From: a virus | DNA length: 18,809 nucleotides | Virus record (IMG/VR): IMGVR_UViG_3300045988_153303 | Strand: one strand, 5' to 3' | Shown: positions 1 through 18,809 of the stretch, piece by piece | Numbering within the stretch: position 1 is the stretch's first letter | Layout: every line of letters starts with the position of its first letter | Notes under the pieces: generated by a model | Databases searched by the model: none | What the model was told of the DNA's origin: nothing | What the model saw: the letters and a program-made list of their open reading frames with translations, nothing else | Made by a program: the position numbers and the translations under genes

Positions 1-72
1 GTGTGTGGTGGTGGTGTTGTTGTTTCATTGGCTGTTTTTTTATTTTTTTTTCCGTGTTTGTGTGTTTTCGGG

Positions 73-101
73 TTGTGTTGTTGTTTTTTGTGTGGTATAT
101 T
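73..101 (+). promoter_or_regulatory. Early promoter inside the left ITR (TTGTGT - 17 nt - TGgTATATT, extended -10)
   Basis: TTGTGT at 73-78, a 17-nt spacer, then TGGTATATT at 93-101. It lies about 34 nt upstream of the ATG at 135, which has AAGGAG at 123-128. The same extended -10 pattern recurs at 2917-2925 and 13113-13121 on the minus strand. Confidence 0.55.
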
Positions 102-111
102 GTAATTACAA
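100..111. promoter_or_regulatory. Perfect 12-bp palindrome TTGTAATTACAA overlapping the -10/+1 region (operator-like)
   Basis: ttgtaattacaa at 100-111 equals its own reverse complement and overlaps the last two bases of the -10 hexamer (96-101). I found it only in the two ITR copies. Confidence 0.4.
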
Positions 112-134
112 ACCTCATTGGAAAGGAGAATGAA

Positions 135-476
135 ATGTTTGTTGCAACTTATTTTGCGGATGATGATTGTGTTGTTGCTGTGCGGCCTGTTGCGGTTAAG
201 GGTGATGTGGATTGGTCGTCTTTGTATATTGTGGATGATGTTACTGGTTATGGTATGTGGCAGCAGGATGGTGATGATAGGTGGTTTATTGATATTGCTC
301 CTGTGGGTGGTTATGATTTGTGGTGTGATTTGGATGCGTTGAAGATTACTGGTATTTATGGTTCTGATGGGGGTGGGTGGGAGTCTTGTGTGAATGATTT
401 TCTTGCGGATTATGGTTTTAGGCTTGGTCGGTTTGATGGTGTTAGGGGGGATAGGTATGAGTTGGTTGCGTTGTGA
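135..476 (+). CDS. ITR-encoded acidic 113-aa protein, unknown function (left copy)
   Basis: ORF 3..476 trimmed to the ATG at 135, which has AAGGAG 6 nt upstream. The discarded N-terminus (MWWWCCCFIGCFF...) lies upstream of and across the predicted promoter and looks non-protein-like. I count about 19 Asp, 2 Glu, 8 Arg/Lys and 5 Trp. A hairpin terminator follows at 494-523. Confidence 0.7.
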   Translation: MFVATYFADDDCVVAVRPVAVKGDVDWSSLYIVDDVTGYGMWQQDGDDRWFIDIAPVGGYDLWCDLDALKITGIYGSDGGGWESCVNDFLADYGFRLGRFDGVRGDRYELVAL

Positions 477-493
477 GGTTGGTTGGATAAGTT

Positions 494-523
494 AAACCCC
501 TAGGTTTTTTGGCCTAGGGGTTT
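494..523. terminator. Hairpin terminator between convergent genes (ITR gene and endolysin)
   Basis: aaacccctagg (494-504) pairs perfectly with cctaggggttt (513-523) around an 8-nt loop. On the + strand a T-rich tail follows (tttttgttggttgtttt). It sits between a + strand stop (476) and a - strand stop (536). Confidence 0.75.
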
Positions 524-535
524 TTGTTGGTTGTT

Positions 536-1177
536 TTATATGAGGTATTGTGTTGTGCCGTTTACGGCTTTTAGTGCGACGTATCGGGTTTTGCCTGAAC
601 CGCCTGTGTAGTGTGCCCAAATGTACCCGTCTGCGGTTGTGGTGCCGCTTGCGAGGATGACGGTTTGTCCTTTGTGGTATTGTGCTACGACTTGACTGTG
701 GATGCTTGGTGCAGAGCGTACGTTGAGTACTGGCACGTTGACTTGATAGGTGCGTGTGGTGGTGGTGTTGTTGTTGTTGCGTGGGTGGAAGTATCCTATG
801 ATGCCTTTTTTGCTGATATTGATGTATCCGGCTTTGTTGGGGTTTTGTGACATGGTGGTGAGTGTGCCGTTGCCGTTGTCTTTGATTACGATGGCGACGT
901 GGTTCATGCCGCTGCGTTTCCAGAATGCTACGTCACCGTAGGTTGGCGTGTAGTTGGCTGACTCTTTGGTGAAAGCGTTTTGCAGTGCGTGGGAGCGGTT
1001 GTATCGTGCTGTGTATACGCTTGCTGCGTATCCGTCTATGGTGTTTGTGTCGGTTTGTGGGATGCTGTATACGTGTTGTGCGTAGGAGCTCCATAGGTCC
1101 CAGCATTGTGCTCCGTATGCTCCGTCCATGTCGATGGCTTTGCCGTTGACTGTGTTGATCCATTCTTGGATGTTCAT
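536..1177 (-). CDS. Endolysin: N-terminal CHAP-type cysteine peptidase/amidase plus C-terminal SH3b-like wall-binding domain
   Basis: ORF 536..1315 trimmed to the ATG at 1175-1177, preceded by AAAGGAG with a 6-nt spacer. CHAP-like GAYGAQCWDLW (Cys) and NHVAIV (His), an NNNNTTTT linker, and an SH3b-like C-terminus (YQVNVPVLNVRSAPS...GYIWAHY). It is the last gene of a holin-containing cassette. Confidence 0.85.
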   Translation of the reverse strand: MNIQEWINTVNGKAIDMDGAYGAQCWDLWSSYAQHVYSIPQTDTNTIDGYAASVYTARYNRSHALQNAFTKESANYTPTYGDVAFWKRSGMNHVAIVIKDNGNGTLTTMSQNPNKAGYINISKKGIIGYFHPRNNNNTTTTRTYQVNVPVLNVRSAPSIHSQVVAQYHKGQTVILASGTTTADGYIWAHYTGGSGKTRYVALKAVNGTTQYLI

Positions 1178-1188
1178 TTTTTGCTCCT

Positions 1189-1365
1189 TTATATGGTTTG
1201 GGTTAGGTATAGTGTTGCTGTGAGCCATGGTGTTATGGTTATTAGCATGAGTTGGGAGGCTCCTTTTCGGTATTGGTGTCCGGTTTTGAGGTGTGATAGG
1301 CAGTATGCTGTCCATCCTATGATGGCTAGGATGGTGAGGATGTTGAATGCTAGTATTTGGTTCAT
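1189..1365 (-). CDS. Small membrane protein (58 aa), possible holin partner or antiholin
   Basis: This is the last 58 codons of the otherwise implausible ORF 1189..1875: MNQILAFNILTILAIIGWTAYCLSHLK..., with one clear hydrophobic helix. Its ATG (1363-1365) overlaps the holin stop (1362-1364) as ATGA. Its stop lies next to the endolysin SD. Confidence 0.5.
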   Translation of the reverse strand: MNQILAFNILTILAIIGWTAYCLSHLKTGHQYRKGASQLMLITITPWLTATLYLTQTI

Positions 1366-1727
1366 TTGTTGCTGTGTTTTGGTTTGGTGTTGTTTTGTTT
1401 GAAGATGTTCATGAATGGCGTATTTTCGAGTTCGGGGTTGATGGCGGTAATGTTTTCGAGGATTGAGGTGAGTTCGATGAGGCAGATGCCACTGATGGTG
1501 CAGACGAATACGTTGATGGGGAAGCCGAGGGAGACGTGTGTGTTTACCGTGTCTATAAACCATGCCGTCACCGTGAGGATGAGGTAGGTCAGTTTGTGTC
1601 CTAGTCCTGTCCGCATCTTTTGGGAGCTGAGATCGCCTTTCATGATGGCTTTTATCGTGCCGGTGATATAGTCTGTGGTAGTGAAGAAGAGCACTGCGAT
1701 GGCGCACCACATGTCTGATTCTGTCAT
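1362..1727 (-). CDS. Holin (phage_holin_4-like)
   Basis: 121 aa with several hydrophobic segments. DYITGTIKAIMKGDLSSQKMRTGLGHKL resembles the hallmark of the LL-H/A118-type holin family as I remember it. SD GAAAGGA lies upstream of the ATG at 1725-1727. The gene is immediately upstream of the endolysin. Confidence 0.8.
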   Translation of the reverse strand: MTESDMWCAIAVLFFTTTDYITGTIKAIMKGDLSSQKMRTGLGHKLTYLILTVTAWFIDTVNTHVSLGFPINVFVCTISGICLIELTSILENITAINPELENTPFMNIFKQNNTKPKHSNK

Positions 1728-1742
1728 TATTGTGTTTCCTTT

Positions 1743-2810
1743 CTATTTTCCTAGCAGATCTCCAATGATCAGAGCGAAGTCTGCTTTGACTTGGGAGTCT
1801 TCGAATCTTATCTTGCCGAGCCGATAGCCGGTGGTAAGCCGTCTGATTACGTCGTCGGATTTTTTGACGTACCATGTCTTCTCGTCGACGTGGCTGGGGT
1901 CGAGCGTGTATACGGGGCGAGTGTTTTCTTTGGGGATGCGTCGTGAAATGTATTGTGAGACGTGGCCGTCCTTTTCGGATATGGTGATCCAGATTCCGAA
2001 GAGCCCATAGTCGGTGGTGTCTAGGACGTAGGATAGGTCGCTGTCTGACGGTATTGGCGCTATTAAAGTGTCGGATTCGTCTCGGAATTGGTTGCGGATG
2101 GCGTAATCCGCATAGTCGCTGTCATACTGTTCTAGGAATCTGCCGAATTTGGATTTGGCGACTTTTGCTGAGAAGCCTCCATAGTCAGCCAGCTCGAGAC
2201 AGATGAAGCCATTGCAATATAATTTATATTGTTGTTGATTGGCTTGTTGTGTGCCGATATCAAGCCTGTATTTGGCGAAATACGGATTGGCTTTCTGGAC
2301 CGCATTGGATAGGAACAGTACTTTCGTCCTATCCTGCCAGCGGTCGACGGTATTGTAGAATTCGGAGAATGAATTGACTTCATTGCTGAGGAAGCGCAGA
2401 TTGTCGGGGAAGATCTCATCGAAGATGATGAGATGCACTTTCGGGTAGGCGACTGATTTCAGGCCGCCGGCTTGGGAGAGGGCAACGAAGTAACAGCAGG
2501 TGCGCCAATCCTTTTCATCCCACGAATTCCTGTGCAATTGGCCTTTTTCGCCGTTGACGCGAAAAGCATATTCCGGGAAGAAGCCTTGGATGTCCTTGAA
2601 AAACGTTTCCTTGCGCTTCTGTTCCACATCGGTGCGTCGTAGGTAGATGAATTCGTGCCCGTGCTTGAGATATTCTTTGATTCCGTAGCGTTTCGCGGCG
2701 AATGTCTTGCCGAGGCCGCGCGCTCCGATGATGAAATTCCACGGCGCATTGCGGGAGAGGAGGTTGTGCAGGTCGTAATAGTCGTCTTCGCTTAATGTCT
2801 GCAACACCAC
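1743..2810 (-). CDS. DNA encapsidation (packaging) ATPase, phi29 gp16-like
   Basis: Walker A NFIIGARGLGKTF and Walker B HLIIFDEIF. The N-terminal region aligns closely with phi29 gp16 as I recall it (NFVIGARGIGKSY...FIYVRR versus NFIIGARGLGKTF...FIYLRR). GTG start with GGAGGAGGAG 6 nt upstream. Confidence 0.93.
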   Translation of the reverse strand: MVLQTLSEDDYYDLHNLLSRNAPWNFIIGARGLGKTFAAKRYGIKEYLKHGHEFIYLRRTDVEQKRKETFFKDIQGFFPEYAFRVNGEKGQLHRNSWDEKDWRTCCYFVALSQAGGLKSVAYPKVHLIIFDEIFPDNLRFLSNEVNSFSEFYNTVDRWQDRTKVLFLSNAVQKANPYFAKYRLDIGTQQANQQQYKLYCNGFICLELADYGGFSAKVAKSKFGRFLEQYDSDYADYAIRNQFRDESDTLIAPIPSDSDLSYVLDTTDYGLFGIWITISEKDGHVSQYISRRIPKENTRPVYTLDPSHVDEKTWYVKKSDDVIRRLTTGYRLGKIRFEDSQVKADFALIIGDLLGK

Positions 2811-2835
2811 GATAGCTCCTCCTCCATATAAGAGA

Positions 2836-2867
2836 GGGGTGTGACGTCATGACCACCGTCACACCCC
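2836..2867 (-). terminator. 11-bp GC-rich hairpin between a promoter-like element and the ATPase SD (terminator or attenuator)
   Basis: ggggtgtgacg (2836-2846) pairs perfectly with cgtcacacccc (2857-2867) around a 10-nt loop. On the minus-strand RNA it is followed by UCUCUUAUAU and then the GGAGGAGGAG SD. Confidence 0.5.
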
Positions 2868-2916
2868 ATGCCGGCCCAAGGGAAGTTATCTATGTGTCTG
2901 GAATGCCGACGTTTCT

Positions 2917-2925
2917 ATTATACCA
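2917..2925 (-). promoter_or_regulatory. Extended -10 element TGGTATAAT (minus strand) just after the hydrolase stop
   Basis: + strand attatacca at 2917-2925 is TGGTATAAT on the minus strand. A weak -35 (GTTACA) lies at 18-nt spacing inside the upstream CDS. Confidence 0.45.
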
Positions 2926-2935
2926 CATGTCTCGG

Positions 2936-4192
2936 CTAAATGTAACGTCTGATTTCCCATGTCGCGGCGGCCTGCATGGCGGCTCCCATGCTTTTCAAAG
3001 TCGGGCCATTGCCGGGTCCGCCATGGCCAAGACAATGAGTACCGTCCCCGGTGGCCATTTCGACATGGTCGTAATTGACGTAATCATACCCCCAACATAA
3101 TAGCAGCAGGTCGCCGGTCTGTGCGTTTTTCAAGGCTTCATCCACACTCGTCCCACTGCTGGCGTAGATGCGTCGGCCTTTGCCTTTCATGGCTCCGGTC
3201 CATGTGCCGACGTCGATTCCGAGCGCATCCTGATAGGCTCGCCAGATCGTGCTCGAACAGTCGCCGTATCCGGTATGGAGCGGATCCAATCGGCCTCCGG
3301 CCTGCGAGTAGGCGAAACGTCCCTGCCATGACAGGTAGAGGTTGTACACTTTCCGCTGGTCCGAGGTGGCACTGCCGCTACTGCTCCCCCCTTCGGTCTG
3401 CCCGCCCGAGATTTCCTGACCCTTCTGTACGCTTTCGACCCAATTCTGCGCGGTGGTATGATGGAAAGTACTCACCTTACCCCCGTCATGCAGGTACATG
3501 TCATCGCCTTGTATATGTATCCACCGCGTGGCCTTCGGTTTGGATTCGATGGCCGCATCATTGCCTCCCGGCGTGACGTCGATACTGCCGGACTGTCCGA
3601 AATCCGGGGGGGCGCTCGAACCGTCCCAAGAGGACAATAGCCGGTAGACGGTATCATATCTATTGGAATATCGTCCGAGCACGGAATCATTGAGCGCGGT
3701 GGAATGGAACAGCTCCAAAGATCCCGTCGCGCTGACATTGCCCAACACCACCAGCGCACGTTGCGGCGACTGGTGATACATGCTCATGAAGAAGATACGC
3801 TCCCTGACATTGCCGGCAGGGAACCCGTAATTGTCGCAAGTGGCGGAATACGCCGCATAGTCCGACTCCCATAGGTCTTGTTCGACCTTATGGAATTCGA
3901 TGCGGTTCGCCCATGCAATGAATGCGTTACCTTCCGCACGGGTTAAGTATCGGCCGGTCCACGATATGGTGTTGGCCTCGACCTGACCGGCTAAGGTGGG
4001 CGCGTCCTGCTTGAATCGAGCCCATCCGGTCGGATCCTCCGTCCGCCCCTTGTCGAGGAGAACGTAAGCACGTGTTCCGTACCATTGCATCATACCCAAG
4101 GTTATCGGATCATGGTAGTTTACCGCGGTCCACGAATTGCCTGATTCGACCTTGCCGATCACGTACATCGCATACATGCTTTGATCGCTCAT
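2936..4192 (-). CDS. Tail-associated peptidoglycan hydrolase (phi29 gp13 position): lysozyme-like N-domain plus NlpC/P60-type cysteine peptidase C-domain
   Basis: The N-terminus VIGKVESGNSW...ITLGMMQWYG resembles the ES...G(L/M)xQW motif of the phage tail lysozyme domain (phi29 gp13 N-domain). The C-terminus YGDCSSTIWRAY...GDLLLL...YDHVEMATG has an NlpC/P60-like Cys...His pattern. A Gly/Ser linker (GGQTEGGSSSGSATS) joins them. The gene sits between the fibre genes and the ATPase, as in phi29. Confidence 0.8.
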   Translation of the reverse strand: MSDQSMYAMYVIGKVESGNSWTAVNYHDPITLGMMQWYGTRAYVLLDKGRTEDPTGWARFKQDAPTLAGQVEANTISWTGRYLTRAEGNAFIAWANRIEFHKVEQDLWESDYAAYSATCDNYGFPAGNVRERIFFMSMYHQSPQRALVVLGNVSATGSLELFHSTALNDSVLGRYSNRYDTVYRLLSSWDGSSAPPDFGQSGSIDVTPGGNDAAIESKPKATRWIHIQGDDMYLHDGGKVSTFHHTTAQNWVESVQKGQEISGGQTEGGSSSGSATSDQRKVYNLYLSWQGRFAYSQAGGRLDPLHTGYGDCSSTIWRAYQDALGIDVGTWTGAMKGKGRRIYASSGTSVDEALKNAQTGDLLLLCWGYDYVNYDHVEMATGDGTHCLGHGGPGNGPTLKSMGAAMQAAATWEIRRYI

Positions 4193-4216
4193 CGTAATGC
4201 TCTTTCGTTAAAAGTA

Positions 4217-4249
4217 ATGGCCATACCACCATTATAGTGGCATGGCCAT
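4217..4249 (-). terminator. 13-bp hairpin terminator after the tail-fibre gene
   Basis: atggccataccac (4217-4229) pairs with gtggcatggccat (4237-4249). The one non-Watson-Crick position is a G-U wobble in the minus-strand RNA but an A-C mismatch in the + strand RNA, which favours function on minus-strand transcripts. UACUUUUAAC follows. Confidence 0.65.
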
Positions 4250-4301
4250 CCTTCGTGTCTGCTTTATTTTTTACAGTTTATTGGTGATCATGCAATACCG
4301 G

Positions 4302-5768: not shown

Positions 5769-5774
5769 GTTATG

Positions 5775-5960
5775 TCAGTCCTTTTCTCTAATTTCGGTGT
5801 GCAACTGGGTTAAGATCTGGTCTATCATGCGCATGGCGCGGTTGTATCCGTCGCGCATGTCCATCGGTGTCGCGTCATTGTAGAGAGGTAACCCCCAGTG
5901 ACGCGTCACGTCATATGACGTCGTGTCAACCTGCGTGATCTGCGGATCGTCTGCCATCAT
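5775..5960 (-). CDS. 61-aa protein consisting only of the fibre N-terminal docking motif
   Basis: WGLPLYNDATPMDMRDGYNRAMRMIDQIL is paralogous to the N-termini of the 488-aa and 118-aa neighbours. It is tightly packed between them (stop 5775, next start 5768). Confidence 0.55.
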   Translation of the reverse strand: MMADDPQITQVDTTSYDVTRHWGLPLYNDATPMDMRDGYNRAMRMIDQILTQLHTEIREKD

Positions 5961-5963
5961 ACC

Positions 5964-6320
5964 TCACTTTCCGGAAGCGGTGGTGGCAACGAACGGAAGC
6001 CCCTCCGCGGTAACCTTAGTGTCGTTGAGGTTTTTGACCGTGTACTGTCCGCCACCACCGGTTGCCGGAACACGGTTGAGGAAATGATTAAGCGCGGTGC
6101 CGAGCGCTCCGGCGTTCGCGACAGTCAATCCGAGAGCGGTGGTGAATGCACTCAACCCTTCCGGTAGCGATTCCGGTGTCGGAATGGCGTCAATCCTATC
6201 CGACTGCGTTTTCAGCGCCGTGTCAAGGATGTCCATTGAGCGGTTGTACTCGCCTTGCAGGTTCGGCGAATCCGTCGCGTCATACTTTTCGAGATTATAA
6301 TTCGGTGTTTTCTGTGTCAC
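5964..6320 (-). CDS. 118-aa tail-fibre-like protein with the shared N-terminal docking motif
   Basis: GTG start with AGGAG 5 nt upstream. PNYNLEKYDATDSPNLQGEYNRSMDILDTAL matches the docking motif. The short C-terminal part contains a GGGG stretch. Confidence 0.65.
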   Translation of the reverse strand: MTQKTPNYNLEKYDATDSPNLQGEYNRSMDILDTALKTQSDRIDAIPTPESLPEGLSAFTTALGLTVANAGALGTALNHFLNRVPATGGGGQYTVKNLNDTKVTAEGLPFVATTASGK

Positions 6321-8711: not shown

Positions 8712-8756
8712 GATCACCGTCCTAAAATAATGGAGAGAGCTTGTATTACTCCCTCC

Positions 8757-8785
8757 ATTATATGTCAGTATGAAATACCTGCCAG
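8757..8785 (-). promoter_or_regulatory. Possible internal promoter CTGGCA - 17 nt - TATAAT upstream of the connector gene
   Basis: + strand attata at 8757-8762 and tgccag at 8780-8785. It overlaps the end of the tail-knob CDS. No TG extension. Confidence 0.25.
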
Positions 8786-12783: not shown

Positions 12784-12797
12784 TTATCCTTCCTTTA

Positions 12798-13076
12798 TTA
12801 GTCGAATAGGTCTTCGATGGAATCGTCATCACTGACACCATCACCGTCATCATCGGTCGTGGTCGGCTCATTATAGCCAAGCGTGTCCATCATGGCTTTA
12901 AGTACGGCCAATTCCTTCTCGATGGCGTCAAGTCGTACGGATACGTCCGGCTTATCGACTTTCGGCTCCGGATCCGCCTCCGGCTTGACTCCGTCATTTA
13001 CAGTTTCGGTGTGCTGTGCTTCTTCGGTCGGCGGCGGGGTAGTGGTCTCCTTACCGTCAGTCTTCGGGTCATCCAT
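12798..13076 (-). CDS. Scaffolding protein candidate (phi29 gp7 position), highly acidic
   Basis: 92 aa against 98 aa for gp7. AAGGAG lies 6 nt upstream of the ATG. A central amphipathic helix (RLDAIEKELAVLKAMMDTLG) is flanked by acidic, Pro/Thr-rich tails. It is directly upstream of the capsid gene and downstream of a promoter. Confidence 0.55.
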   Translation of the reverse strand: MDDPKTDGKETTTPPPTEEAQHTETVNDGVKPEADPEPKVDKPDVSVRLDAIEKELAVLKAMMDTLGYNEPTTTDDDGDGVSDDDSIEDLFD

Positions 13077-13112
13077 ATAATCTCCTTGCTCTGGACGATG
13101 CTTTCACTAAAA

Positions 13113-13121: not shown

Positions 13122-13139
13122 TAGCGCCGAAAATACAAT

Positions 13140-13165
13140 GACCCCGCGCAATCACACGCGGGGTC
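13140..13165 (-). terminator. Terminator closing the replication operon or noncoding segment
   Basis: gaccccgcg (13140-13148) pairs with cgcggggtc (13157-13165) around an 8-nt loop. AUUGUAUUUUCGG follows on the minus-strand RNA. Confidence 0.7.
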
Positions 13166-13308: not shown

Positions 13309-14757
13309 TCATAGCACGACCACCGCACCGCACGCATCATGCACGCGCTCGCCATGCCGGAATTTTTCGTAAGGAACAGGTTCGACAAAAAGACTGCCCG
13401 ACATGCAGACATCGACTTCACCATCATCACGCCACCCCTGATACCTATTCACGCCGAGAATGGTGAGCCTCTCATATCGTGCGGCAACCTTCCATTTGCC
13501 AAGCTCGGTCGCATGGATGGCACACGATTTCGGCGGCTCCCAGCCAGACAAAATGCACCCGTCCGTATTCGCATACAGCAGTCTATCCGCATTGGCATGA
13601 CAGACATCCATGAGCTTACGGCGCGCATAAGCATTGACCCATACGGGCACGGGCAAATAATCGGATTTTAGATTCGACTCGTCACGCTTCATCACATCCC
13701 ATCGCAAGGTGACACCATCATCCGAAGCAGGTATCATGACAGAACCCCTCGGTAGACTTGCCATCTTACCTACCAGCGCATTCATGACCAGTTTCGCCAT
13801 CCGCCGTCTCGCACCCGTCGCCTGCTGTTTCACCGACCCCCACTCGTCAACAAAGGATTGGAACATACCTTTTGACTGACGGAATTTCCACCCGCGCACA
13901 TACCGGTAGACCGTCACATCATAATTTTCGAAAAGCAGATGCTGGTCGATGTCGGTAAGCACGCGAACGACAAATCCACGGGTGGAAGTGAGACGGTTCA
14001 GACCGTAGACGCTCCGGTTGTCAAGCAGAAAAGGATAACCACCCGGCTTTAATTCCGCGCGGAATATCATTTCGTCGCAATGCAGTGGCATGGCGTCATC
14101 CTGCTCATATTGACCTTCGTAGGCTTCCGGCTCGCCGTAAGGAAGCCACTCATCTCGCAGGATGCTCGGATACATGGAATTGCAGTCCACGTCGATAGTC
14201 TTGCCATAAGCACCTTCACGCGCCAGCATAAATCCGCCGATATAAGCGTCGTGAAGCGACGTCTTCACCTCCGGATCGCATTGGGGGAATTTGTTTGCAT
14301 ACCACGTCCAATCACCTGATACGAAAGCTTCCATACTGGCCACTCCTGCCGTGATCCTACACAATCTCTGCCTGTCATACTCGCATAGAATGTCGAAAAG
14401 CTGGTCGTCAGTCATGGTCGCGCGGCAATTCTCCCTCAAAAGATTGGAAATATCAAAAAACCTCACCGAATTCCTCTTGGAAAGGGTTACGGTAAAGCTG
14501 AAGAATTTTCCCTTATTCGACACAATGCTATTCCAACTCATGTTGGCATAATGCGTGCTATATGGCAGGCTATGCACGACATGCGCCATGAAAGGGTCAA
14601 GCGTGTGAGGGTCGGTCATGTAGACCGTAAGTCTTCCATTAGTCATGATGGAAGCCAAGAGGCTGCGAGGTGCGACGATGTCGCACAATTGAGTGCCGTC
14701 CGTAAATCGTATAATATTGTCGGCACACCATAAGCCTACACGTTTGTCGGCGATCAT
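13309..14757 (-). CDS. Protein-primed family-B DNA polymerase (phi29 gp2-like), 482 aa
   Basis: DVDCNSMYPS (motif A, DxxSLYPS), KLVMNALVGKM (motif B, Kx3NSxYG), LLYANTDGC (motif C, YxDTD). LPYGEP is identical to phi29, and RITAGVASMEAF parallels RMTAGSDSLKGF. The protein is about 90 aa shorter than phi29 gp2, mostly in the N-terminal exonuclease region. Confidence 0.92.
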   Translation of the reverse strand: MIADKRVGLWCADNIIRFTDGTQLCDIVAPRSLLASIMTNGRLTVYMTDPHTLDPFMAHVVHSLPYSTHYANMSWNSIVSNKGKFFSFTVTLSKRNSVRFFDISNLLRENCRATMTDDQLFDILCEYDRQRLCRITAGVASMEAFVSGDWTWYANKFPQCDPEVKTSLHDAYIGGFMLAREGAYGKTIDVDCNSMYPSILRDEWLPYGEPEAYEGQYEQDDAMPLHCDEMIFRAELKPGGYPFLLDNRSVYGLNRLTSTRGFVVRVLTDIDQHLLFENYDVTVYRYVRGWKFRQSKGMFQSFVDEWGSVKQQATGARRRMAKLVMNALVGKMASLPRGSVMIPASDDGVTLRWDVMKRDESNLKSDYLPVPVWVNAYARRKLMDVCHANADRLLYANTDGCILSGWEPPKSCAIHATELGKWKVAARYERLTILGVNRYQGWRDDGEVDVCMSGSLFVEPVPYEKFRHGERVHDACGAVVVL

Positions 14758-14784: not shown

Positions 14785-15801
14785 TCATGCGAGTGCTTGA
14801 ACCTCGGTCATCCACCGATCGAAATTGCGGCGCGCACGTTCATACCCTTCGGTATCCTGTTTGAATATCGGTCTGAATGTATGATGCGTCTCATCATAGT
14901 CGACCCAGCCAAATACAATATGTGGGGCGTCGGTCTGTTCGATGAAAGCCCTTTTCTGGGCCGCGGTCAGACTACGGAAGCGCTTGAGCCGTTTCGCGCC
15001 GAGCGAGGAGCCAATCACCTTGCCGAAAGTGTCATACCGGCTTTTAGTCATGTAGACCGGCCATTCGCCCTTGCCGTAGAGAGCTTCCGGCTTTCCGCTC
15101 TTATACTTCTTTGCAACAGTGTGCTCGCGGTTGCGCTCCGTCCTCAGCCCAAGAATTTCGGCGGCGTCATGCATTTGGGCGAGAATTTCCTTACGATGGC
15201 CGCCTTTTAGCTGGGCACGGACGAAATCCTCGTCGTCCAATATATTGGTCATTTGAAGGAAGTCGGTCAGCTTAGATGGGATGATCAGATTGCCACTGAA
15301 TCCCATGTCTCCCGTCGTACCGGTCATTTCAGCTACACGCTGGTCGTATACGCTGACTTTCGGCATAGCCTGCGCACGATTCCATTCATTGATTTTTTCT
15401 CTAGCCGAGTTGATCTTCCGTTGTTGCTGGCGGAGGAGTTTACGCCGTTTCGCCACCGGCTCGGCCGCGATCCGTGCGTCCGATATGTCGGCGCGTGAGG
15501 CGAACATGTAATCCTTTTTTGTCGGCCGTTCTATGGCGGTGGCATGATATGGCGTCGCTTTCGCTTCCACAATGGCCTGTTTCTTCTGCCTTTCCCACTC
15601 TTGGCCAAGCGTTTTAGCAATGTTGACAAGCTGTTGGTCGGCGGTCTTGGCGAGATTCGCATGCGAATAGGTGCCAAGTTGTTTGATGTTGCGGGCGGCA
15701 CGGGCTTGCGCGGCCTGCCGTGCCTTGACATGCTTCTGCTTGCGTGACACGGGACACGTCCCTTCAGATAAGGAGAGCACCCCATGTAGAGGTGCTCTCA
15801 A
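14785..15801 (-). CDS. Terminal protein candidate (phi29 gp3 position)
   Basis: Directly upstream of the polymerase in the same operon, as in phi29. Strongly basic N-terminus (RKQKHVKARQAAQARAARNIKQ). No motif-level match is claimed. The start is uncertain: the track uses TTG at 15801, and the GTG at 15750 has GAAGGGA 8 nt upstream. Confidence 0.5.
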   Translation of the reverse strand: MRAPLHGVLSLSEGTCPVSRKQKHVKARQAAQARAARNIKQLGTYSHANLAKTADQQLVNIAKTLGQEWERQKKQAIVEAKATPYHATAIERPTKKDYMFASRADISDARIAAEPVAKRRKLLRQQQRKINSAREKINEWNRAQAMPKVSVYDQRVAEMTGTTGDMGFSGNLIIPSKLTDFLQMTNILDDEDFVRAQLKGGHRKEILAQMHDAAEILGLRTERNREHTVAKKYKSGKPEALYGKGEWPVYMTKSRYDTFGKVIGSSLGAKRLKRFRSLTAAQKRAFIEQTDAPHIVFGWVDYDETHHTFRPIFKQDTEGYERARRNFDRWMTEVQALA

Positions 15802-15833: not shown

Positions 15834-16277
15834 TCACTTCGCTTCTTCATCCACCGGCTCAATGCTGAAGAATTTAAAGCCACGGCGGGACCGACGTTCC
15901 ACCACCTTAATAGGGAGGGGAGCATCCCAAGTGTTAGGAGTACCGAAGATGCCGAACATTGTGTTCAACCCGGCCGCCAGAGTGGGGGAGGTGGCGGAGT
16001 ACGCCTTGCCATCGGCGGTGACGATGATGACACGCACTGTGGCGGAAATCTCTCCGGTCTGATCGTCGGTCACCTGTACGGCCTGTGCGACTGCATTCGA
16101 CATGAGCATGGTCTCGTTCAGATGTTCATCGAGCTTTTCAGCATTCTGAAGTGCGGAGTAGAGCTTGATCTTGCCTTCGCGGGTGCTAGTGTCGATGAAG
16201 TGCTGGACGGTGCCGAGCTCAGTGTTTTCGGTGTTGAATGCGACGAGTGCGGTGCTGTTGTCGTTTTCCATGGTCAT
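15834..16277 (-). CDS. Putative ssDNA-binding protein (phi29 gp5 position)
   Basis: 147 aa, located between the 105-aa gene and the terminal-protein candidate, matching the phi29 order 6-5-(4)-3-2. Short acidic C-terminal tail (EPVDEEAK). The assignment rests on position and size only. Confidence 0.35.
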   Translation of the reverse strand: MTMENDNSTALVAFNTENTELGTVQHFIDTSTREGKIKLYSALQNAEKLDEHLNETMLMSNAVAQAVQVTDDQTGEISATVRVIIVTADGKAYSATSPTLAAGLNTMFGIFGTPNTWDAPLPIKVVERRSRRGFKFFSIEPVDEEAK

Positions 16278-16335: not shown

Positions 16336-16653
16336 TCACATGCCGTCATTGTTTTCAATTTCGGCATGTCGTTTTTTTTCGTGTTCTTCCGGATTCCACT
16401 TCTGCGGCTCCTCAAAAGTCGCATACTTGTAAAATGTTTCGTCATCCATCGTGACCTTCTGAGAAAAGACCTCGATAGTACGCGGCATGAAATTCGGAAA
16501 AAGCTTCTTAGCACGGACCGCATACGCACGAGCATCCTTCAAACGCCCGTCAACGACATGCTCGGTCGGCATAAAATCGCCATCCACCAATTCCATGCCT
16601 CTCAATACAGCATACACACGAGTCCGGAACACTCCCGATTTTACTCGAGCCAT
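16336..16653 (-). CDS. 105-aa protein, unknown; first gene after the consensus promoter (phi29 gp6 position)
   Basis: ATG at 16651-16653 with AAGGAAAG 9 nt upstream. The composition is protein-like, and the size matches the 104-aa phi29 p6. No sequence similarity is claimed. Confidence 0.6.
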   Translation of the reverse strand: MARVKSGVFRTRVYAVLRGMELVDGDFMPTEHVVDGRLKDARAYAVRAKKLFPNFMPRTIEVFSQKVTMDDETFYKYATFEEPQKWNPEEHEKKRHAEIENNDGM

Positions 16654-16659
16654 AATAGC

Positions 16660-17187
16660 CTACTTTCCTTGATCAAAAATCCTTGACAATTCCTTATCAT
16701 TATAACGAGTCACATCAAGTCTGTCAAAATTCTTAAAGACCGCAATAATAAGATTACGCGCCCGCACATCGTCGAAAAGAGCACAACAATCAAAGCTCGT
16801 ACCCCCCTTGACCGCACACACCGCGCACCAAGCGATCAGATTCACAGGATCCACCGTACCATCCAAATACTCCACATCGAAAGTACGAGACAGCGCCGAC
16901 TGCAAACCATCCCCCCGACTCAAAGAGCCAGCAATCCGCACGACCATGAGGACAGCCTGATCAAACCACGGATTAACCCCCTCTCGCCACAATTCACACA
17001 GCATAGCAACAGCCCGACAACACGTCTCGAAGTCACCACACCCCTCATCATAGCGGCCCAAGGAAGCCTCACGCATACGACCACACAGCGCCCTACGAAT
17101 ACGCGGCGACTCCATGATCGCATCATCAAAATCACGCATACGATAGATCGGGACCCAACCATCCCCCCGGACAAAACCCTTAGACAT
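16660..17187 (-). CDS. Early protein, about 175 aa, unknown function
   Basis: Long ORF 16660..17220. I prefer the ATG at 17185-17187 (GAGGA 8 nt upstream, 8-nt overlap with the upstream gene) over the ATG at 17220 (41-nt overlap). Helix-rich, Cys-rich sequence with no motif I recognise. Confidence 0.6.
   Translation of the reverse strand: MSKGFVRGDGWVPIYRMRDFDDAIMESPRIRRALCGRMREASLGRYDEGCGDFETCCRAVAMLCELWREGVNPWFDQAVLMVVRIAGSLSRGDGLQSALSRTFDVEYLDGTVDPVNLIAWCAVCAVKGGTSFDCCALFDDVRARNLIIAVFKNFDRLDVTRYNDKELSRIFDQGK
16699..16727 (-). promoter_or_regulatory. Consensus sigma-70-type promoter TTGACA - 17 nt - TATAAT for the replication module
   Basis: + strand attata at 16699-16704 and tgtcaa at 16722-16727, with exactly 17 nt between them. 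On the minus strand this reads TTGACA-N17-TATAAT. The -10 hexamer ends about 45 nt upstream of the ATG at 16653. The promoter lies inside the 3' end of the 16660..17187 CDS. Confidence 0.75.
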
Positions 17188-17353
17188 AATACCGATCCTC
17201 GATCCTAAAATAGGAGACATCCTTTACACGCTCCGGCCTATCAGCCCACTCACGAACTATCTTGTAACCCTCATCATACGACGACGCATAGCCGATCTCG
17301 ACAGGCTCACCACCATGACGCAAATACGCCAAAACAGTAAAAGTCTTATACAT
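17180..17353 (-). CDS. Early protein, 57 aa, unknown function (below the ORF-track size cut-off)
   Basis: Hand translation: MYKTFTVLAYLRHGGEPVEIGYASSYDEGYKIVREWADRPERVKDVSYFRIEDRYYV. AGGA lies 9 nt upstream. It fills the gap between neighbouring genes; the upstream stop at 17357 is 3 nt away. Confidence 0.45.
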   Translation of the reverse strand: MYKTFTVLAYLRHGGEPVEIGYASSYDEGYKIVREWADRPERVKDVSYFRIEDRYYV

Positions 17354-17356
17354 GAT

Positions 17357-17569
17357 TCACATTCCTAACGTTTCATACTGCTCGACACTCCAATCATGCC
17401 CACATACCCACATGTCATGCCAGACGGCAATCAGACGACGCGGACAGCGAGTCGGTGCAACAAAACGACGATTCCGATAGCCACTCCAGAAAGCACGAAG
17501 CCGCCAATACGCCTCCGCATCCGGACAATCACCACACGTGAGCGAATGAACAAAGCCACAAAAATACAT
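17357..17569 (-). CDS. Early protein, about 70 aa, Cys/Trp-rich, unknown function
   Basis: The track ORF 17357..17572 starts at GTG. The ATG at 17567-17569 shares one base with the upstream TGA (TGATG), suggesting translational coupling. Confidence 0.5.
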   Translation of the reverse strand: MYFCGFVHSLTCGDCPDAEAYWRLRAFWSGYRNRRFVAPTRCPRRLIAVWHDMWVCGHDWSVEQYETLGM

Positions 17570-17799
17570 CACCCCCTCCTTTCGACAGATTCTGCGGCAA
17601 GACTAATAGCATCCAACACCATACTCCCCATCTCACTCGGCTTCGTTACATCATAATAACAAGAAGACATCACACCACCCCCCGTACGATACCTCAACAC
17701 CAGCATCTGCTGATGCGGACAATACTCACACCCCACATTACCAGCTATATGCGGGCTATAAAACACGGCGATTTTCACATCACGCGCAGACGATTTCAT
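17569..17799 (-). CDS. Early protein, about 76 aa, unknown function
   Basis: ORF 17569..17844 trimmed to the ATG at 17797-17799, which has GAAAGGA 5 nt upstream. This removes the overlap with the upstream gene, which ends at 17814. Confidence 0.5.
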   Translation of the reverse strand: MKSSARDVKIAVFYSPHIAGNVGCEYCPHQQMLVLRYRTGGGVMSSCYYDVTKPSEMGSMVLDAISLAAESVERRG

Positions 17800-17813
17800 G
17801 ACAATCCTTTCGA

Positions 17814-18122
17814 TCAAAATTTTCCAAGAATACGATGCTCCCACGAGACATACTCATCATACCACTCGGAACATACCAGCTCATCCAAAGACAAGCCAAC
17901 AACACAGGCACGCTTACACGCCATATATCCGTCCAGCAAATCATAAGCCGTAAGCGCCAGCCACAAACGGCCGTCAGCCAGTACGAAAAACTCATGATAC
18001 GGCCGACGACACCCCGGATGCTTCCACGTCCACACGAACACAACCCTCCGCAAAGACTTCGAATCAACCAAAGTAAAATAATGATGTTGCATAACATCAT
18101 CAACACACAACACAACACTCAC
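17814..18122 (-). CDS. Early protein, 102 aa, unknown function
   Basis: GTG start overlapping the upstream stop (GTGA), with GAGG 4 nt upstream. More protein-like than the competing frame 17780..18118. 5 Trp and 5 Cys. Confidence 0.55.
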   Translation of the reverse strand: MSVVLCVDDVMQHHYFTLVDSKSLRRVVFVWTWKHPGCRRPYHEFFVLADGRLWLALTAYDLLDGYMACKRACVVGLSLDELVCSEWYDEYVSWEHRILGKF

Positions 18123-18334
18123 CTCCCCTCACACACAGGATCAAAAGCCATACAATAACGAGCCCAGCCAATAAGCTGAGCCGAAAACAACATCGCACGA
18201 TCCGCACTCACCTCAAAACGATAAACACTACCATCCAAACCAATATACGCAACGGTAGCAACACCATCCGAACGCTGAACAATACTGACACTAAAATGCT
18301 CCACAATACACTCCTTACCTACAAATACTCCCAT
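18119..18334 (-). CDS. Early protein, about 71 aa, unknown function
   Basis: The ATG at 18332-18334 shares one base with the TGA of the ITR gene (TGATG), exactly at the inner ITR boundary. Confidence 0.5.
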   Translation of the reverse strand: MGVFVGKECIVEHFSVSIVQRSDGVATVAYIGLDGSVYRFEVSADRAMLFSAQLIGWARYCMAFDPVCEGR

Positions 18335-18675
18335 CACAACGCAACCAACTCATACCTATCCCCCCTAACACCATCAAACCGACCAAGCCTAAAACCATAA
18401 TCCGCAAGAAAATCATTCACACAAGACTCCCACCCACCCCCATCAGAACCATAAATACCAGTAATCTTCAACGCATCCAAATCACACCACAAATCATAAC
18501 CACCCACAGGAGCAATATCAATAAACCACCTATCATCACCATCCTGCTGCCACATACCATAACCAGTAACATCATCCACAATATACAAAGACGACCAATC
18601 CACATCACCCTTAACCGCAACAGGCCGCACAGCAACAACACAATCATCATCCGCAAAATAAGTTGCAACAAACAT
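18334..18675 (-). CDS. ITR-encoded acidic 113-aa protein (right copy, first gene of the early operon)
   Basis: Mirror image of 135..476, with identical sequence. Confidence 0.7.
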   Translation of the reverse strand: MFVATYFADDDCVVAVRPVAVKGDVDWSSLYIVDDVTGYGMWQQDGDDRWFIDIAPVGGYDLWCDLDALKITGIYGSDGGGWESCVNDFLADYGFRLGRFDGVRGDRYELVAL

Positions 18676-18698
18676 TTCATTCTCCTTTCCAATGAGGT

Positions 18699-18710
18699 TT
18701 GTAATTACAA
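18699..18710. promoter_or_regulatory. Right-arm copy of the TTGTAATTACAA palindrome
   Basis: Mirror of 100-111 within the ITR. Confidence 0.4.
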
Positions 18711-18737
18711 TATACCACACAAAAAACAACAACACAA
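18709..18737 (-). promoter_or_regulatory. Early promoter inside the right ITR
   Basis: Mirror of 73-101. Here it would drive the whole right-arm early operon. Confidence 0.55.
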
Positions 18738-18809
18738 CCCGAAAACACACAAACACGGAAAAAAAAATAAAAAAACAGCCAATGAAACAACAACACCACC
18801 ACCACACAC

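What the first reader, a model, noticed from the sequence alone, without database searches (positions are those of the whole stretch)
1..1740. End-anchored strand asymmetry: the strand with its 5' end at the nearby terminus is G+T-rich and C-poor, whatever the coding direction
In bases 1-60 I count G 18, T 36, C 4, A 2. In 721-780 (inside the endolysin) I count G 24, T 23, C 7, A 6. In 1441-1500 (inside the holin) I count G 23, T 17, A 13, C 7. The endolysin and holin are coded on the minus strand, so their coding strand is A+C-rich; this shows up as NNNNTTTT and many Thr/Asn/Gln/His residues. The right arm (about 16660-18809) is the mirror image. There the + strand is A+C-rich (17581-17640: A 17, C 21, G 9, T 13), and the minus-strand coding sequences are G+T-rich. 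Samples from the centre (2461-2520, 3301-3360) are roughly balanced. The skew therefore follows distance and orientation relative to the genome ends, not transcription. This is what prolonged single-strandedness of the displaced strand in symmetric protein-primed strand-displacement replication should produce: C to U and A to hypoxanthine deamination, the accepted explanation for the G+T-rich strand of vertebrate mtDNA. The transitions are fairly sharp and coincide with module borders, so mosaic ancestry of the terminal modules is the alternative.
Basis: partly seen in the sequence, partly recalled or inferred. Interest (0 to 1): 0.68.

Follow-up and report, generated by a model that had tools for sequence, protein, structure and literature searches.

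The report
Mirror-image strand skew at phage ends
In this small linear Bifidobacterium phage, the last 2-3 kb at each end are strongly G+T-rich on the strand whose 5' end lies at that terminus, whichever way the genes point; the bias is strongest at silent codon positions, so it looks like a mutational scar of end-initiated DNA replication.

Summary
The window is a complete 18.8-kb phi29-like podophage genome, related to Bifidobacterium phages BD811P1-3 and BP1. It has a perfect 476-bp inverted terminal repeat (ITR), and all genes except the left ITR copy lie on the minus strand. Outside the ITR, + strand G+T is 0.69 on the left (477-1740) and 0.32 on the right (16660-18333), against 0.51 +/- 0.03 in the centre.

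The skew is strongest at fourfold-degenerate sites and changes sign between the arms although coding direction does not. It also reshapes amino-acid content. It occurs across about 58 related genomes. With the same end-relative sign it recurs in Microbacterium, Arthrobacter, Actinomyces and 'Rhizobium' phi29-like phages whose terminal genes face outward. It is absent from phi29, Cp-1, and Curtobacterium and Clostridium phages.

Polarised substitutions show excess C>T on the 5'-ended strand. Inward transcription from the ITR promoter is disfavoured. A mutational, end-anchored cause is well supported.

The simple displaced-strand model is only partly supported. The skew does not decline linearly to the centre: it fades within 2.5-3.7 kb, as a ramp on the left and a step on the right near a conserved promoter. 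I found no published description for phi29-like phages.

The parts
1..476 (+). Left inverted terminal repeat. It starts with reiterated GTGTGTGG TGG TGG TG TTG TTG TT.
   Evidence: It is 100% complementary to 18334-18809. Bases 1-105, upstream of the ITR promoter, are 90% G+T.
18334..18809 (-). Right inverted terminal repeat
91..101 (+). Extended -10-like element TGTGGTATATT of an inward-facing ITR promoter. The mirror copy is at 18709-18719 on the minus strand.
   Evidence: Read directly from the sequence. The similar motif TTTTTTGTGTGGTATGAT sits at the end of BD811P2. Promoter function is inferred, not tested.
135..476 (+). Inward-facing gene inside the ITR: 113 aa, acidic (net charge -13), preceded by the ribosome-binding site GAAAGGAG. 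An identical copy lies at 18334-18675 on the minus strand. The ITR ends exactly at its stop codon.
   Evidence: Third codon positions are A2 C0 G39 T73, i.e. 98% G/T. No Pfam or PHROG match.
494..523 (.). Bidirectional intrinsic-terminator hairpin between the left ITR gene and the convergent endolysin
   Evidence: 13-bp stem. An equivalent AAAGCCCCTAGG...CCTAGGGGCTTT hairpin (dG -17 to -32 kcal/mol) is present in 42 of 42 family genomes.
536..1315 (-). Endolysin (CHAP + SH3_5); its coding strand is A+C-rich
   Evidence: Pfam and PHROGs matches. Fourfold-site GC/AT skew on the coding strand is -0.75/+0.66. T, N, Q, H, P and K together make up 41% of residues, against 28% in the capsid protein.
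1362..1727 (-). Holin (Phage_holin_4_1)
   Evidence: Fourfold-site skew -0.53/+0.88.
1743..2810 (-). gp16-type DNA packaging ATPase; the left-arm gradient passes through it
   Evidence: Podovirus_Gp16, E = 1e-45. Fourfold-site skew -0.45/+0.59.
1..3300 (+). Left skewed zone, where the + strand (5' end at the left terminus) is G+T-rich
   Evidence: Third-position G+T per 300 nt: 0.95, 0.91, 0.85, 0.75, 0.74, 0.82, 0.66, 0.67, 0.60, 0.59, 0.50. Best fits are a ramp to 3.7 kb or an exponential with a 2.3-kb constant.
16400..18809 (-). Right skewed zone, where the minus strand (5' end at the right terminus) is G+T-rich. It holds small early ORFs at 16660-18337 plus the ITR.
   Evidence: Third-position G+T on the minus strand is 0.72-0.85, then drops to about 0.47. 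Best fit is a step at 2.4 kb from the end. Fourfold-site skews are +0.3 to +0.76 / -0.4 to -0.85.
16699..16727 (-). Perfect-consensus promoter TTGACA-17-TATAAT, conserved across the family, at the inner edge of the right skewed zone
   Evidence: In 21 of 34 family genomes the right change point lies 0-60 nt outside it, while its distance from the end ranges from 1.5 to 3.1 kb.
15834..16277 (-). phi29-type SSB gene, with C-rich third positions that deepen the apparent step on the right
   Evidence: PF17427, E = 2e-20. Fourfold-site skew -0.48/-0.22.
14785..15801 (-). Candidate terminal protein, assigned by its position between the SSB and polymerase genes
   Evidence: Position only, by analogy with Av-1. 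No Pfam or PHROG match.
13309..14757 (-). Protein-primed type family B DNA polymerase
   Evidence: PF03175 DNA_pol_B_2, E = 8e-25.
13140..13165 (-). The first strong minus-strand terminator-like hairpin downstream of the early/replication genes
   Evidence: 11-bp stem with 8 G-C pairs. None was detected at the right skew boundary.

Best explanation
The skew is a mutational footprint anchored at the genome ends.

Proposed mechanism. In this phi29-like phage, replication is inferred to start at both termini from a terminal protein. The strand whose 5' end lies at a terminus is therefore the one peeled off there. While single-stranded, its cytosines deaminate to uracil and its adenines to hypoxanthine. 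These are then copied as T and G. Over time that strand becomes G+T-rich and C/A-poor in the terminal 2-3 kb of each arm. Silent codon positions reach 80-98% G/T, and amino-acid content is dragged along.

What is shown:
- The end-relative sign of the skew.
- Its concentration at synonymous sites.
- Its independence from coding direction.
- Its presence across the family and in other lineages.
- Ongoing excess of C>T on the 5'-ended strand.

What is inferred:
- That the exposed state is single-strandedness of the displaced strand.
- That the short range arises because exposure is dominated by short-range events rather than by full-length displacement. Candidates are forks that start at an end and stall. 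On the left they would meet late transcription head-on, giving a ramp. On the right they would meet the conserved strong promoter co-directionally, giving a step.
For: 1. Fourfold-site skew on the coding strand is -0.75/+0.66 (endolysin), -0.53/+0.88 (holin) and -0.45/+0.59 (ATPase). It is about 0 in the centre and +0.3 to +0.76 / -0.4 to -0.85 in the right-arm ORFs. All these genes are on the same strand.

2. In the window's clade, G+T of the 5'-ended strand against distance is almost the same on both arms beyond the ITRs: 0.746/0.738, 0.710/0.697, 0.670/0.664, 0.688/0.670, 0.643/0.620, 0.619/0.622 per 250 nt.

3. Across 58 genomes, median third-position A+C on the coding strand runs endolysin 0.73 > holin 0.66 > ATPase 0.58 > centre 0.51-0.56 > p105 0.44 > p186 0.38 > ITR gene 0.21.

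4. Polarised substitutions on the + strand:
- Left arm: C>T 20 against G>A 5, a rate ratio of 4.6.
- Right arm, third positions: G>A rate 0.185 against C>T 0.042, p = 0.016.
- Gene-tree parsimony, C>T/G>A: 1.1-1.5 in left-arm genes, 0.5-0.8 in central genes, 0.41-0.47 in right-arm genes.
- Gene-tree parsimony, A>G/T>C: about 2.1 in the endolysin and holin, against a typical 1.1-1.5 in the centre and 1.05-1.16 on the right. SSB is an exception at 2.6.

5. Third-position divergence from close relatives is 8-12% in the arms against 1-3% in non-recombinant central blocks.

6. The same end-relative sign appears at third positions in PineapplePizza, Anjali, Mendel and RHph_N3_8, whose terminal genes face outward at both ends, and at the right end of Av-1. 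This rules out sense transcription as a general cause.

7. The untranscribed terminal 105 nt are the most skewed part, at 90% G+T.

8. The phi29 literature treats uracil from cytosine deamination in single-stranded replicative intermediates as a recognised hazard, and phi29 encodes the UDG inhibitor p56 (PMC4974454).
Against: - A linear decline to the genome centre, which symmetric strand displacement predicts, is rejected on both arms. The skew is gone by 2.5-3.7 kb of a 9.4-kb half-genome.
- The right arm is step-like. Its boundary follows a conserved promoter at 1.5-3.1 kb rather than a fixed distance. Part of that step is a C3-rich SSB gene just inside the promoter.
- In most of the family the right arm is about twice as skewed as the left.
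- Within-gene regressions of skew on distance are weak (rho about 0.3) or absent.
- phi29, Cp-1, Athos, CI55P1, Grotle and Ayka replicate, or are presumed to replicate, the same way but lack the pattern.
- The A>G asymmetry is not significant in the close-relative counts.
- Terminal-protein linkage and the replication mode of this phage are inferred from homology only.
- The fork-stalling account of the short range is untested.
Confidence: 0.55

Rival explanations
1. A different end-specific source of single-strandedness. The unprotected 3' ends are chewed back by a 3'-to-5' exonuclease (the phage polymerase's own proofreading activity or a host enzyme) and then refilled. This repeatedly leaves the terminal-protein-capped 5' strand single-stranded over a kilobase-scale stretch.
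For: It gives the same sign and the same symmetry as the best explanation. It naturally produces a gradient confined to a few kb from each end, which the data favour over a linear decline to the centre. It is independent of coding direction.
Against: There is no direct evidence for it. It does not by itself explain the step at the conserved promoter on the right. The phi29 family generally has strong polymerase exonuclease activity (established knowledge), yet phi29 shows no such skew.
Confidence: 0.15
2. Transcription-coupled mutation. The ITR carries an inward-facing promoter at both ends. The non-template strand, which is the 5'-ended strand, is exposed during early transcription: sense on the right, antisense read-through over the lysis genes on the left.
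For: An inward promoter-like element and an inward gene lie in the ITR. The right skewed zone coincides with the early gene block and ends near a conserved promoter whatever its distance from the end. In most of the family the left arm is weaker and shorter than the right, as expected for read-through.
Against: - A strong bidirectional terminator hairpin sits between the left ITR gene and the endolysin in 42 of 42 genomes. The skew crosses it undiminished: third-position G+T is 0.98 in the ITR gene and 0.95 then 0.91 in the next 600 nt. Hairpin strength does not correlate with endolysin skew.
- On the right no terminator marks the boundary. Transcription should continue, reinforced by a perfect-consensus promoter, to the hairpin at 13165-13140, yet those genes are unskewed.
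- The untranscribed first 105 nt are the most skewed.
- Other phi29-like phages with outward-facing terminal genes show the same end-relative sign.
Confidence: 0.1
3. Selection rather than mutation bias. One version is avoidance of C and A on the strand that is exposed, because uracil or hypoxanthine excision in single-stranded DNA would break the genome. Another is selection on mRNA or codon composition of early and lysis genes.
For: The phi29 literature argues that uracil excision in single-stranded intermediates would cause loss of terminal DNA regions (PMC4974454). The skew also reaches first and second codon positions and protein composition.
Against: The effect is largest at fourfold-degenerate sites and in the non-coding terminal 105 nt, as expected for mutation pressure. 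Polarised substitutions show the corresponding directional changes. Codon or mRNA selection would not give opposite signs in two arms coded on the same strand, nor the same end-relative sign in phages with other gene orientations. C/A avoidance still requires the same end-anchored single-strandedness.
Confidence: 0.1
4. Two unrelated causes that happen to mirror each other, or mosaic ancestry of the terminal modules. On this view the early-gene block and the lysis block each brought their own composition.
For: The arms are recombinationally mosaic. The window's endolysin region is 91-99% identical to L155 but only 72-79% identical to L009, which is otherwise its closest relative. The right boundary is module-linked. 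Some genomes carry unskewed inserts within the right arm, for example L024 at 500-1500 nt from the end.
Against: All endolysin homologues of 60% identity or more are in this same family and always terminal, so no differently skewed outside donor pool was found. The left gradient runs smoothly across three conserved core genes. In the window's clade the two arms match in magnitude and slope. Ongoing directional substitutions occur in place.
Confidence: 0.07

Closest known systems
Heavy-strand compositional gradient of vertebrate mitochondrial DNA (strand-displacement replication; C>T and A>G deamination scaling with time spent single-stranded)
   Same: The exposed strand is G+T-rich and C/A-poor. 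The effect is strongest at fourfold-degenerate sites. Both transition types contribute. It is largely independent of transcription direction. The magnitude is comparable or larger here, with fourfold-site GC skew up to 0.75.
   Different: This genome is linear, with two terminal origins, so the pattern is mirror-symmetric. The gradient covers only the terminal 2.5-3.7 kb instead of scaling with predicted single-stranded time over the whole replicon. One arm is step-like.
Adenovirus genomes (protein-primed, strand displacement from both termini). Grigoriev 1999, Virus Research 60:1, reported GC skew changing linearly across the linear genome. This is recalled from my own knowledge; the paper is not in the held library.
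   Same: The replication logic and the expected sign are the same: an end-anchored strand asymmetry that reverses between the two halves.
   Different: As I recall it, the adenovirus skew is modest and linear across the whole genome. Here it is extreme, confined to the ends and flat in the central 13 kb.
Leading/lagging-strand GC skew of bacterial chromosomes, and transcription-associated skew of phages such as phi29 itself
   Same: It is a strand compositional asymmetry visible in cumulative skew plots.
   Different: Bacterial skew is weak and switches at an internal origin and terminus. In phi29 and Athos the skew follows coding direction. Here it is opposite to coding direction in the left arm.

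Membership tests
phi29-like protein-primed podophage (genome type) | Family B DNA polymerase of the protein-primed type (DNA_pol_B_2) | tested here: met
   PF03175, E = 8e-25, for 13309-14757
phi29-like protein-primed podophage (genome type) | Terminal protein gene and covalent protein at the 5' ends | tested here: inconclusive
   The 338-aa ORF at 14785-15801 sits between the SSB and polymerase genes, as the terminal protein does in Av-1. It has no Pfam or PHROG match. Covalent linkage cannot be tested from sequence.
phi29-like protein-primed podophage (genome type) | Linear genome with inverted terminal repeats and reiterated terminal bases | tested here: met
   476-bp perfect ITR. The ends begin GTGTGTGG....
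phi29-like protein-primed podophage (genome type) | phi29-type SSB, connector, major capsid protein and gp16 packaging ATPase | tested here: met
   PF17427, PF05352, PF25622 and PF05894
phi29-like protein-primed podophage (genome type) | Packaging RNA (pRNA) | tested here: not met
   No Rfam match at E <= 1 anywhere in the window. pRNAs diverge fast, so this does not exclude one.
Replication-associated deamination skew of a displaced single strand (mtDNA/adenovirus type) | Skew concentrated at synonymous (fourfold-degenerate) sites | tested here: met
Replication-associated deamination skew of a displaced single strand (mtDNA/adenovirus type) | Sign set by orientation relative to the origin (here the termini), not by coding direction | tested here: met
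Replication-associated deamination skew of a displaced single strand (mtDNA/adenovirus type) | Both C>T and A>G excess on the exposed strand | tested here: inconclusive
   Composition shows both. The C>T excess is significant in polarised counts. The A>G excess appears only in the family-wide parsimony counts, and parsimony is biased when composition is skewed.
Replication-associated deamination skew of a displaced single strand (mtDNA/adenovirus type) | Magnitude proportional to predicted time spent single-stranded (linear decline from each end to the centre) | tested here: not met
   The linear-to-centre model is worse by delta AIC 31-94 than a ramp, exponential or step reaching baseline at 2.4-3.7 kb.
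Replication-associated deamination skew of a displaced single strand (mtDNA/adenovirus type) | Physical single-strandedness of the 5'-ended strand during replication | not testable with these tools
   Needs ssDNA mapping in infected cells.
Transcription-coupled strand asymmetry | The skewed zone coincides with a transcription unit, with the non-template strand G+T-rich | tested here: not met
   In the left arm the skew is opposite to sense transcription and crosses a conserved bidirectional terminator. On the right the transcription unit continues beyond the skew boundary.

The most novel reading that the evidence does not exclude
The terminal 2-3 kb of these genomes may be zones of chronic single-strandedness. 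Forks launched from the ends would repeatedly stall against RNA polymerase: head-on against late transcription on the left, and at a conserved consensus promoter on the right. Base composition would then be a fossil map of replication-transcription conflict in a protein-primed replicon. The size of the effect may be set by whether uracil and hypoxanthine repair is blocked in a given phage-host pair. If so, terminal skew would be a sequence-only readout of replication-intermediate structure and repair evasion across the roughly 2,000 known phi29-like genomes (count from PMC11476376).
Probability: 0.2. Interest if true: 0.75.

Novelty: new variant of a known kind. Interest (0 to 1): 0.6.

Why it matters
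Strand asymmetry from single-stranded replication intermediates is textbook for mitochondria, and I recall it being noted for adenovirus. I found no description of it for phi29-like phages in the held literature.

Here it is extreme. Third codon positions reach 98% G/T, and the amino-acid content of terminal genes is shifted. It is confined to the ends and recurs in several actinobacterial lineages but not in Firmicute ones.

If the mutational reading is right, it has four consequences:
- It gives a sequence-only test for terminal, protein-primed replication in uncultured phages.
- It shows that the simple phi29 kinetic model does not describe where DNA is exposed in these phages.
- It explains why terminal genes of these phages evolve fast and look compositionally foreign.
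- It warns that gene calling and codon-usage-based host prediction will misbehave in such arms, because stop-poor frames produce long spurious ORFs.

Tried and rejected
- Non-terminal homologues. I scanned IMG/VR and the metagenome collection with the endolysin.
- Regression of per-gene skew on distance from the end across 58 genomes. Correlations were weak for p186 and p105 (rho about 0.3) and absent on the left, where distances vary little and contig ends are often truncated.
- Close-relative triplet polarisation. It was informative for C>T. Counts were too small for A>G, and parsimony is biased against the skew-producing changes when composition is skewed.
- Gene-tree Fitch counts. The directions are consistent but the magnitudes are muted.
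- Promoter and terminator scan. The total number of hits is not above the shuffled expectation. Only the perfect consensus promoter, the ITR elements and the two strong hairpins were used.
- Rfam search for a pRNA or any other RNA: nothing found.
- Pfam and PHROGs on the ITR gene, the terminal-protein candidate, p105, the 418-aa, 488-aa and 92-aa ORFs, and the right-arm early ORFs: no matches.
- Literature searches for prior reports: none found. The Grigoriev 1999 and Elias-Arnanz & Salas papers are not held.
- Terminator strength against endolysin skew: no correlation.
- Assembly artefact was rejected. The pattern is present in cultured isolates and in dozens of independent assemblies.
Full report
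**What the window is.** The 18,809-bp window is a complete linear phi29-like podophage genome.
- Its closest cultured relatives are Bifidobacterium phages BD811P1/2/3, about 80% identical over the central 70%, and BP1.
- It has a perfect 476-bp inverted terminal repeat, 1-476 and 18334-18809.
- It encodes a protein-primed-type family B polymerase, a phi29-type SSB, connector, phi29-type capsid protein and gp16 packaging ATPase.
- A CHAP+SH3_5 endolysin (536-1315) and a holin (1362-1727) are also present.
- All genes lie on the minus strand except the left copy of a small gene carried inside the ITR.
- The terminal protein is assigned only by position (14785-15801). No pRNA was detected.

**Check of the observation.**
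- Over 1-1750, sliding-window GC skew is +0.35 to +0.64 and AT skew -0.33 to -0.50. Over 16500-18809 the values are the mirror image. The central 13 kb are near zero.
- The ITR makes the outer 476 bp mirror-symmetric by construction, so I tested the arms without it. G+T is 0.687 for 477-1740 and 0.317 for 16660-18333. Central windows of the same size give 0.514 +/- 0.029, range 0.431-0.563. Chi-square p values are 3e-31 and 2e-56.
- With the ITR excluded, the 200-nt G+T profiles of the two 5'-ended strands correlate at r = 0.66 out to the centre.

**The skew is at silent sites and ignores coding direction.** Fourfold-site GC/AT skews, expressed on the coding strand:

| Gene(s) | GC skew / AT skew |
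|---|---|
| endolysin | -0.75 / +0.66 |
| holin | -0.53 / +0.88 |
| ATPase | -0.45 / +0.59 |
| central genes | mostly within +/-0.25 |
| right-arm ORFs | +0.3 to +0.76 / -0.4 to -0.85 |

- All these genes share one strand, so the sign follows the nearer end.
- The ITR gene has third positions A2 C0 G39 T73.
- Protein composition follows. T, N, Q, H, P and K make up 41% of the endolysin, against 28% of the capsid protein. F, V, G, W, C and L make up 30-50% of the early proteins, against 28%.

**Shape of the skew.** Third-position G+T on the + strand, per 300 nt, falls smoothly on the left: 0.95, 0.91, 0.85, 0.75, 0.74, 0.82, 0.66, 0.67, 0.60, 0.59, 0.50. This runs through the ATPase into the next gene. 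On the right, minus-strand G+T holds at 0.72-0.85 and then drops to about 0.47 near 16.4-16.5 kb.

| Binomial model | Left arm AIC | Right arm AIC |
|---|---|---|
| Exponential | 3662 (2.3-kb constant) | 3805 |
| Ramp to baseline | 3665 (3.7 kb) | 3787 (3.0 kb) |
| Step | 3688 | 3755 (2.4 kb) |
| Linear decline to centre | 3697 | 3849 |

So a linear decline to the genome centre is rejected on both arms.

**Relatives.**
- I retrieved 80 related contigs from IMG/VR with the tail protein. More came from endolysin scans of IMG/VR and the metagenome collection.
- The cultured relatives show the same mirror pattern, more weakly.
- Across 58 genomes, median third-position A+C on the coding strand runs endolysin 0.73, holin 0.66, ATPase 0.58, central genes 0.51-0.56, p105 0.44, p186 0.38, ITR gene 0.21. 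This is a gradient by gene order on both arms.
- In the window's own clade (window, L009, L010, L015) the two arms are almost superimposable as a function of distance out to 2 kb.
- In the rest of the family, the right arm's excess over baseline is about twice the left arm's and extends further.

**Ongoing mutation.**
- L155 is 91-99% identical to the window over 400-4800. Using it with outgroups, the left arm shows C>T 20 against G>A 5 on the + strand, a per-base rate ratio of 4.6.
- Using L008/L009 with outgroups, right-arm third positions show the reverse: G>A rate 0.185 against C>T 0.042, p = 0.016.
- Fitch counts on gene trees of 70-104 sequences give C>T/G>A of 1.48, 1.13 and 1.17 in left-arm genes, 0.46-0.79 in central genes, and 0.47 and 0.41 in right-arm genes.
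- The same counts give A>G/T>C of 2.17, 2.06 and 1.33 on the left, mostly 1.1-1.5 in the centre (SSB 2.6), and 1.16 and 1.05 on the right.
- Parsimony under skewed composition under-counts exactly the skew-producing changes, so these are conservative figures.
- Third-position divergence from close relatives is 8-12% in the arms against 1-3% in non-recombinant central blocks. This fits a locally raised mutation rate, although recombination cannot be excluded.

**The transcription rival.** The ITR carries an inward promoter-like element (TGTGGTATATT at 91-101) and an inward gene with a good ribosome-binding site (135-476). Inward transcription could therefore expose the same strand at both ends. 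Four results argue against it:
- A bidirectional terminator hairpin lies between that gene and the convergent endolysin in 42 of 42 genomes. The skew crosses it undiminished, and hairpin strength does not predict endolysin skew.
- On the right there is no terminator at the skew boundary. Transcription should continue to the hairpin at 13165-13140, reinforced by a perfect TTGACA-17-TATAAT promoter at 16727-16699. Yet those genes are unskewed.
- Bases 1-105, upstream of the ITR promoter, are 90% G+T.
- Other phi29-like phages with outward-facing terminal genes show the same end-relative sign.

**Other phi29-like phages.** Third-position G+T on the record's + strand:

| Phage (host) | Left end | Centre | Right end |
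|---|---|---|---|
| PineapplePizza (Microbacterium) | 0.75, 0.68 | about 0.5 | 0.14-0.42 |
| Anjali, Mendel (Arthrobacter) | 0.57-0.91 | about 0.4 | 0.17-0.42 |
| RHph_N3_8 (recorded host Rhizobium) | 0.79-0.52 | about 0.5 | 0.48-0.34 |
| Av-1 (Actinomyces) | 0.55-0.75 over most of the genome | | 0.31-0.54 |

- The first three groups have outward-facing genes at both ends.
- BadAargau2 shows the same sign weakly.
- Grotle, Ayka, CI55P1 and Cp-1 are flat.
- phi29 and Athos follow coding direction, with a weakly opposite end-relative sign.
- The phenomenon is therefore recurrent but not universal. In this small sample it is found in phages of mid- to high-GC hosts.

**What does not fit.**
- Symmetric or asynchronous strand displacement both predict a net asymmetry that is linear across the genome. 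The observed range is 2.5-3.7 kb.
- In 21 of 34 family genomes the right-arm change point lies 0-60 nt outside the conserved promoter TTGACAGACTGGACACGACACGnTATAAT. The distance of that promoter from the end ranges from 1.5 to 3.1 kb (r = 0.75). The right boundary is therefore module-linked.
- Part of the step is created by the C3-rich SSB gene just inside the promoter.
- Some genomes have unskewed segments inside the right arm, such as L024.

A variant that would account for the short range, for the ramp on the left and for the step on the right is stalling of end-launched forks. On the left they would stall head-on against late transcription. On the right they would stall at the promoter-bound polymerase. 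phi29 fork-RNAP collisions have been studied (Elias-Arnanz & Salas 1997 and 1999; seen only as references, content recalled from memory). Resection and refilling of the unprotected 3' ends is an alternative source of kilobase-scale exposure. Neither variant is tested here.

**Comparison with what is known.** The closest analogues are the heavy-strand gradient of vertebrate mtDNA and the linear GC skew of adenovirus genomes (Grigoriev 1999, recalled from memory; not in the held library). The Salas-laboratory review notes that cytosine deamination in phi29 single-stranded intermediates is a hazard, and that phi29 blocks UDG with p56 (PMC4974454). That supplies the route by which such lesions would become fixed as C>T. 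I found no report of end-anchored skew in phi29-like phages. A 2024 review of about 2,100 such genomes does not contain the word 'skew'.

**Verdict.** A mutational origin anchored at the ends is well supported. Attribution to displaced-strand deamination is the best available mechanism but is only partly supported, because the spatial profile contradicts the simple model. It is a new variant of a known kind of signal.

Noticed in passing
window 121-476 (mirror 18334-18689): The ITR is not just an origin. It contains a complete inward-facing gene (RBS GAAAGGAG, ATG 135, TGA 476), and the repeat ends exactly at the stop codon, so the gene is present and expressible at both ends. The product is 113 aa and very acidic (D19 E2 K2 R6, net -13), with no Pfam or PHROG match. 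Small acidic early proteins in phages are often DNA mimics, such as the UDG inhibitor p56 or anti-restriction proteins. That is speculation here. tblastn finds it in only 10 of the family genomes.
   Followed up: partly
window 494-523; equivalent sites in L016, L017, L034, L037, L045 and others: A bidirectional terminator hairpin (AAAGCCCCTAGG-loop-CCTAGGGGCTTT, flanked by an A-tract and a T-tract) is conserved in 42 of 42 family genomes between the left inward gene and the endolysin stop.
   Followed up: yes
window 16699-16727 (minus strand): A perfect sigma-70 consensus promoter (TTGACA-17-TATAAT) lies inside the 3' end of the 186-aa ORF. It is conserved almost base for base across the family (TTGACAGACTGGACACGACACGnTATAAT). 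It presumably drives the p105-SSB-TP-polymerase block.
   Followed up: partly
window 1-25 and 62-86: The termini begin with reiterated short units (GTGTGTGG TGG TGG TG TTG TTG TT, repeated imperfectly at 62-86). This is the kind of terminal reiteration that protein-primed systems use for sliding-back or jumping-back. phi29, Cp-1 and Av-1 ends are instead C-rich on the 5' strand.
   Followed up: no
window 4200-6000, 7800-9000, 11400-13200, and 1-1800, compared with L009: The closest full-length relative (L009) is 97-99% identical in most blocks but only 50-85% identical at third positions in these blocks. This indicates recent recombinational replacement of the tail-fibre, portal/tail and capsid C-terminal regions and of the left arm.
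   Followed up: partly
window 15834-16277: The SSB gene has the opposite bias to its neighbours. Its third positions are C-rich (fourfold GC skew -0.48 on the coding strand), and this holds family-wide (third-position A+C 0.60). It probably reflects codon selection in a highly expressed gene. It exaggerates the apparent step at the right skew boundary.
   Followed up: partly
window 3-476 (+), 611-1587 (+), 17780-18122 (-): Because the skewed strands are poor in A (or T), stop codons are rare and long spurious ORFs appear in several frames. Examples are 3-476 from a GTG start, and the overlapping pair 17780-18118 / 17814-18122. Gene calls in the arms are therefore unreliable without homology.
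   Followed up: no
L016, L017, L021, L022, L034, L043 and others (IMG/VR contigs): Many contigs have 'ITRs' of exactly 119, 99, 141 or 77 nt. These look like assembler k-mer lengths, so the true ITRs are probably longer and the contig ends truncated. This limits any analysis based on distance from the end.
   Followed up: no
L195 (Anjali) and L197 (Mendel), whole genomes: In the Arthrobacter phages, third-position G+T on the + strand drifts from about 0.45 near 2-5 kb to about 0.23 at the right end. This looks closer to a genome-wide gradient than to the end-confined pattern of the window.
   Followed up: no
whole window: No Rfam family, including phi29 pRNA, matches at E <= 1. If this phage uses a packaging RNA, it is too divergent to be recognised.
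   Followed up: partly
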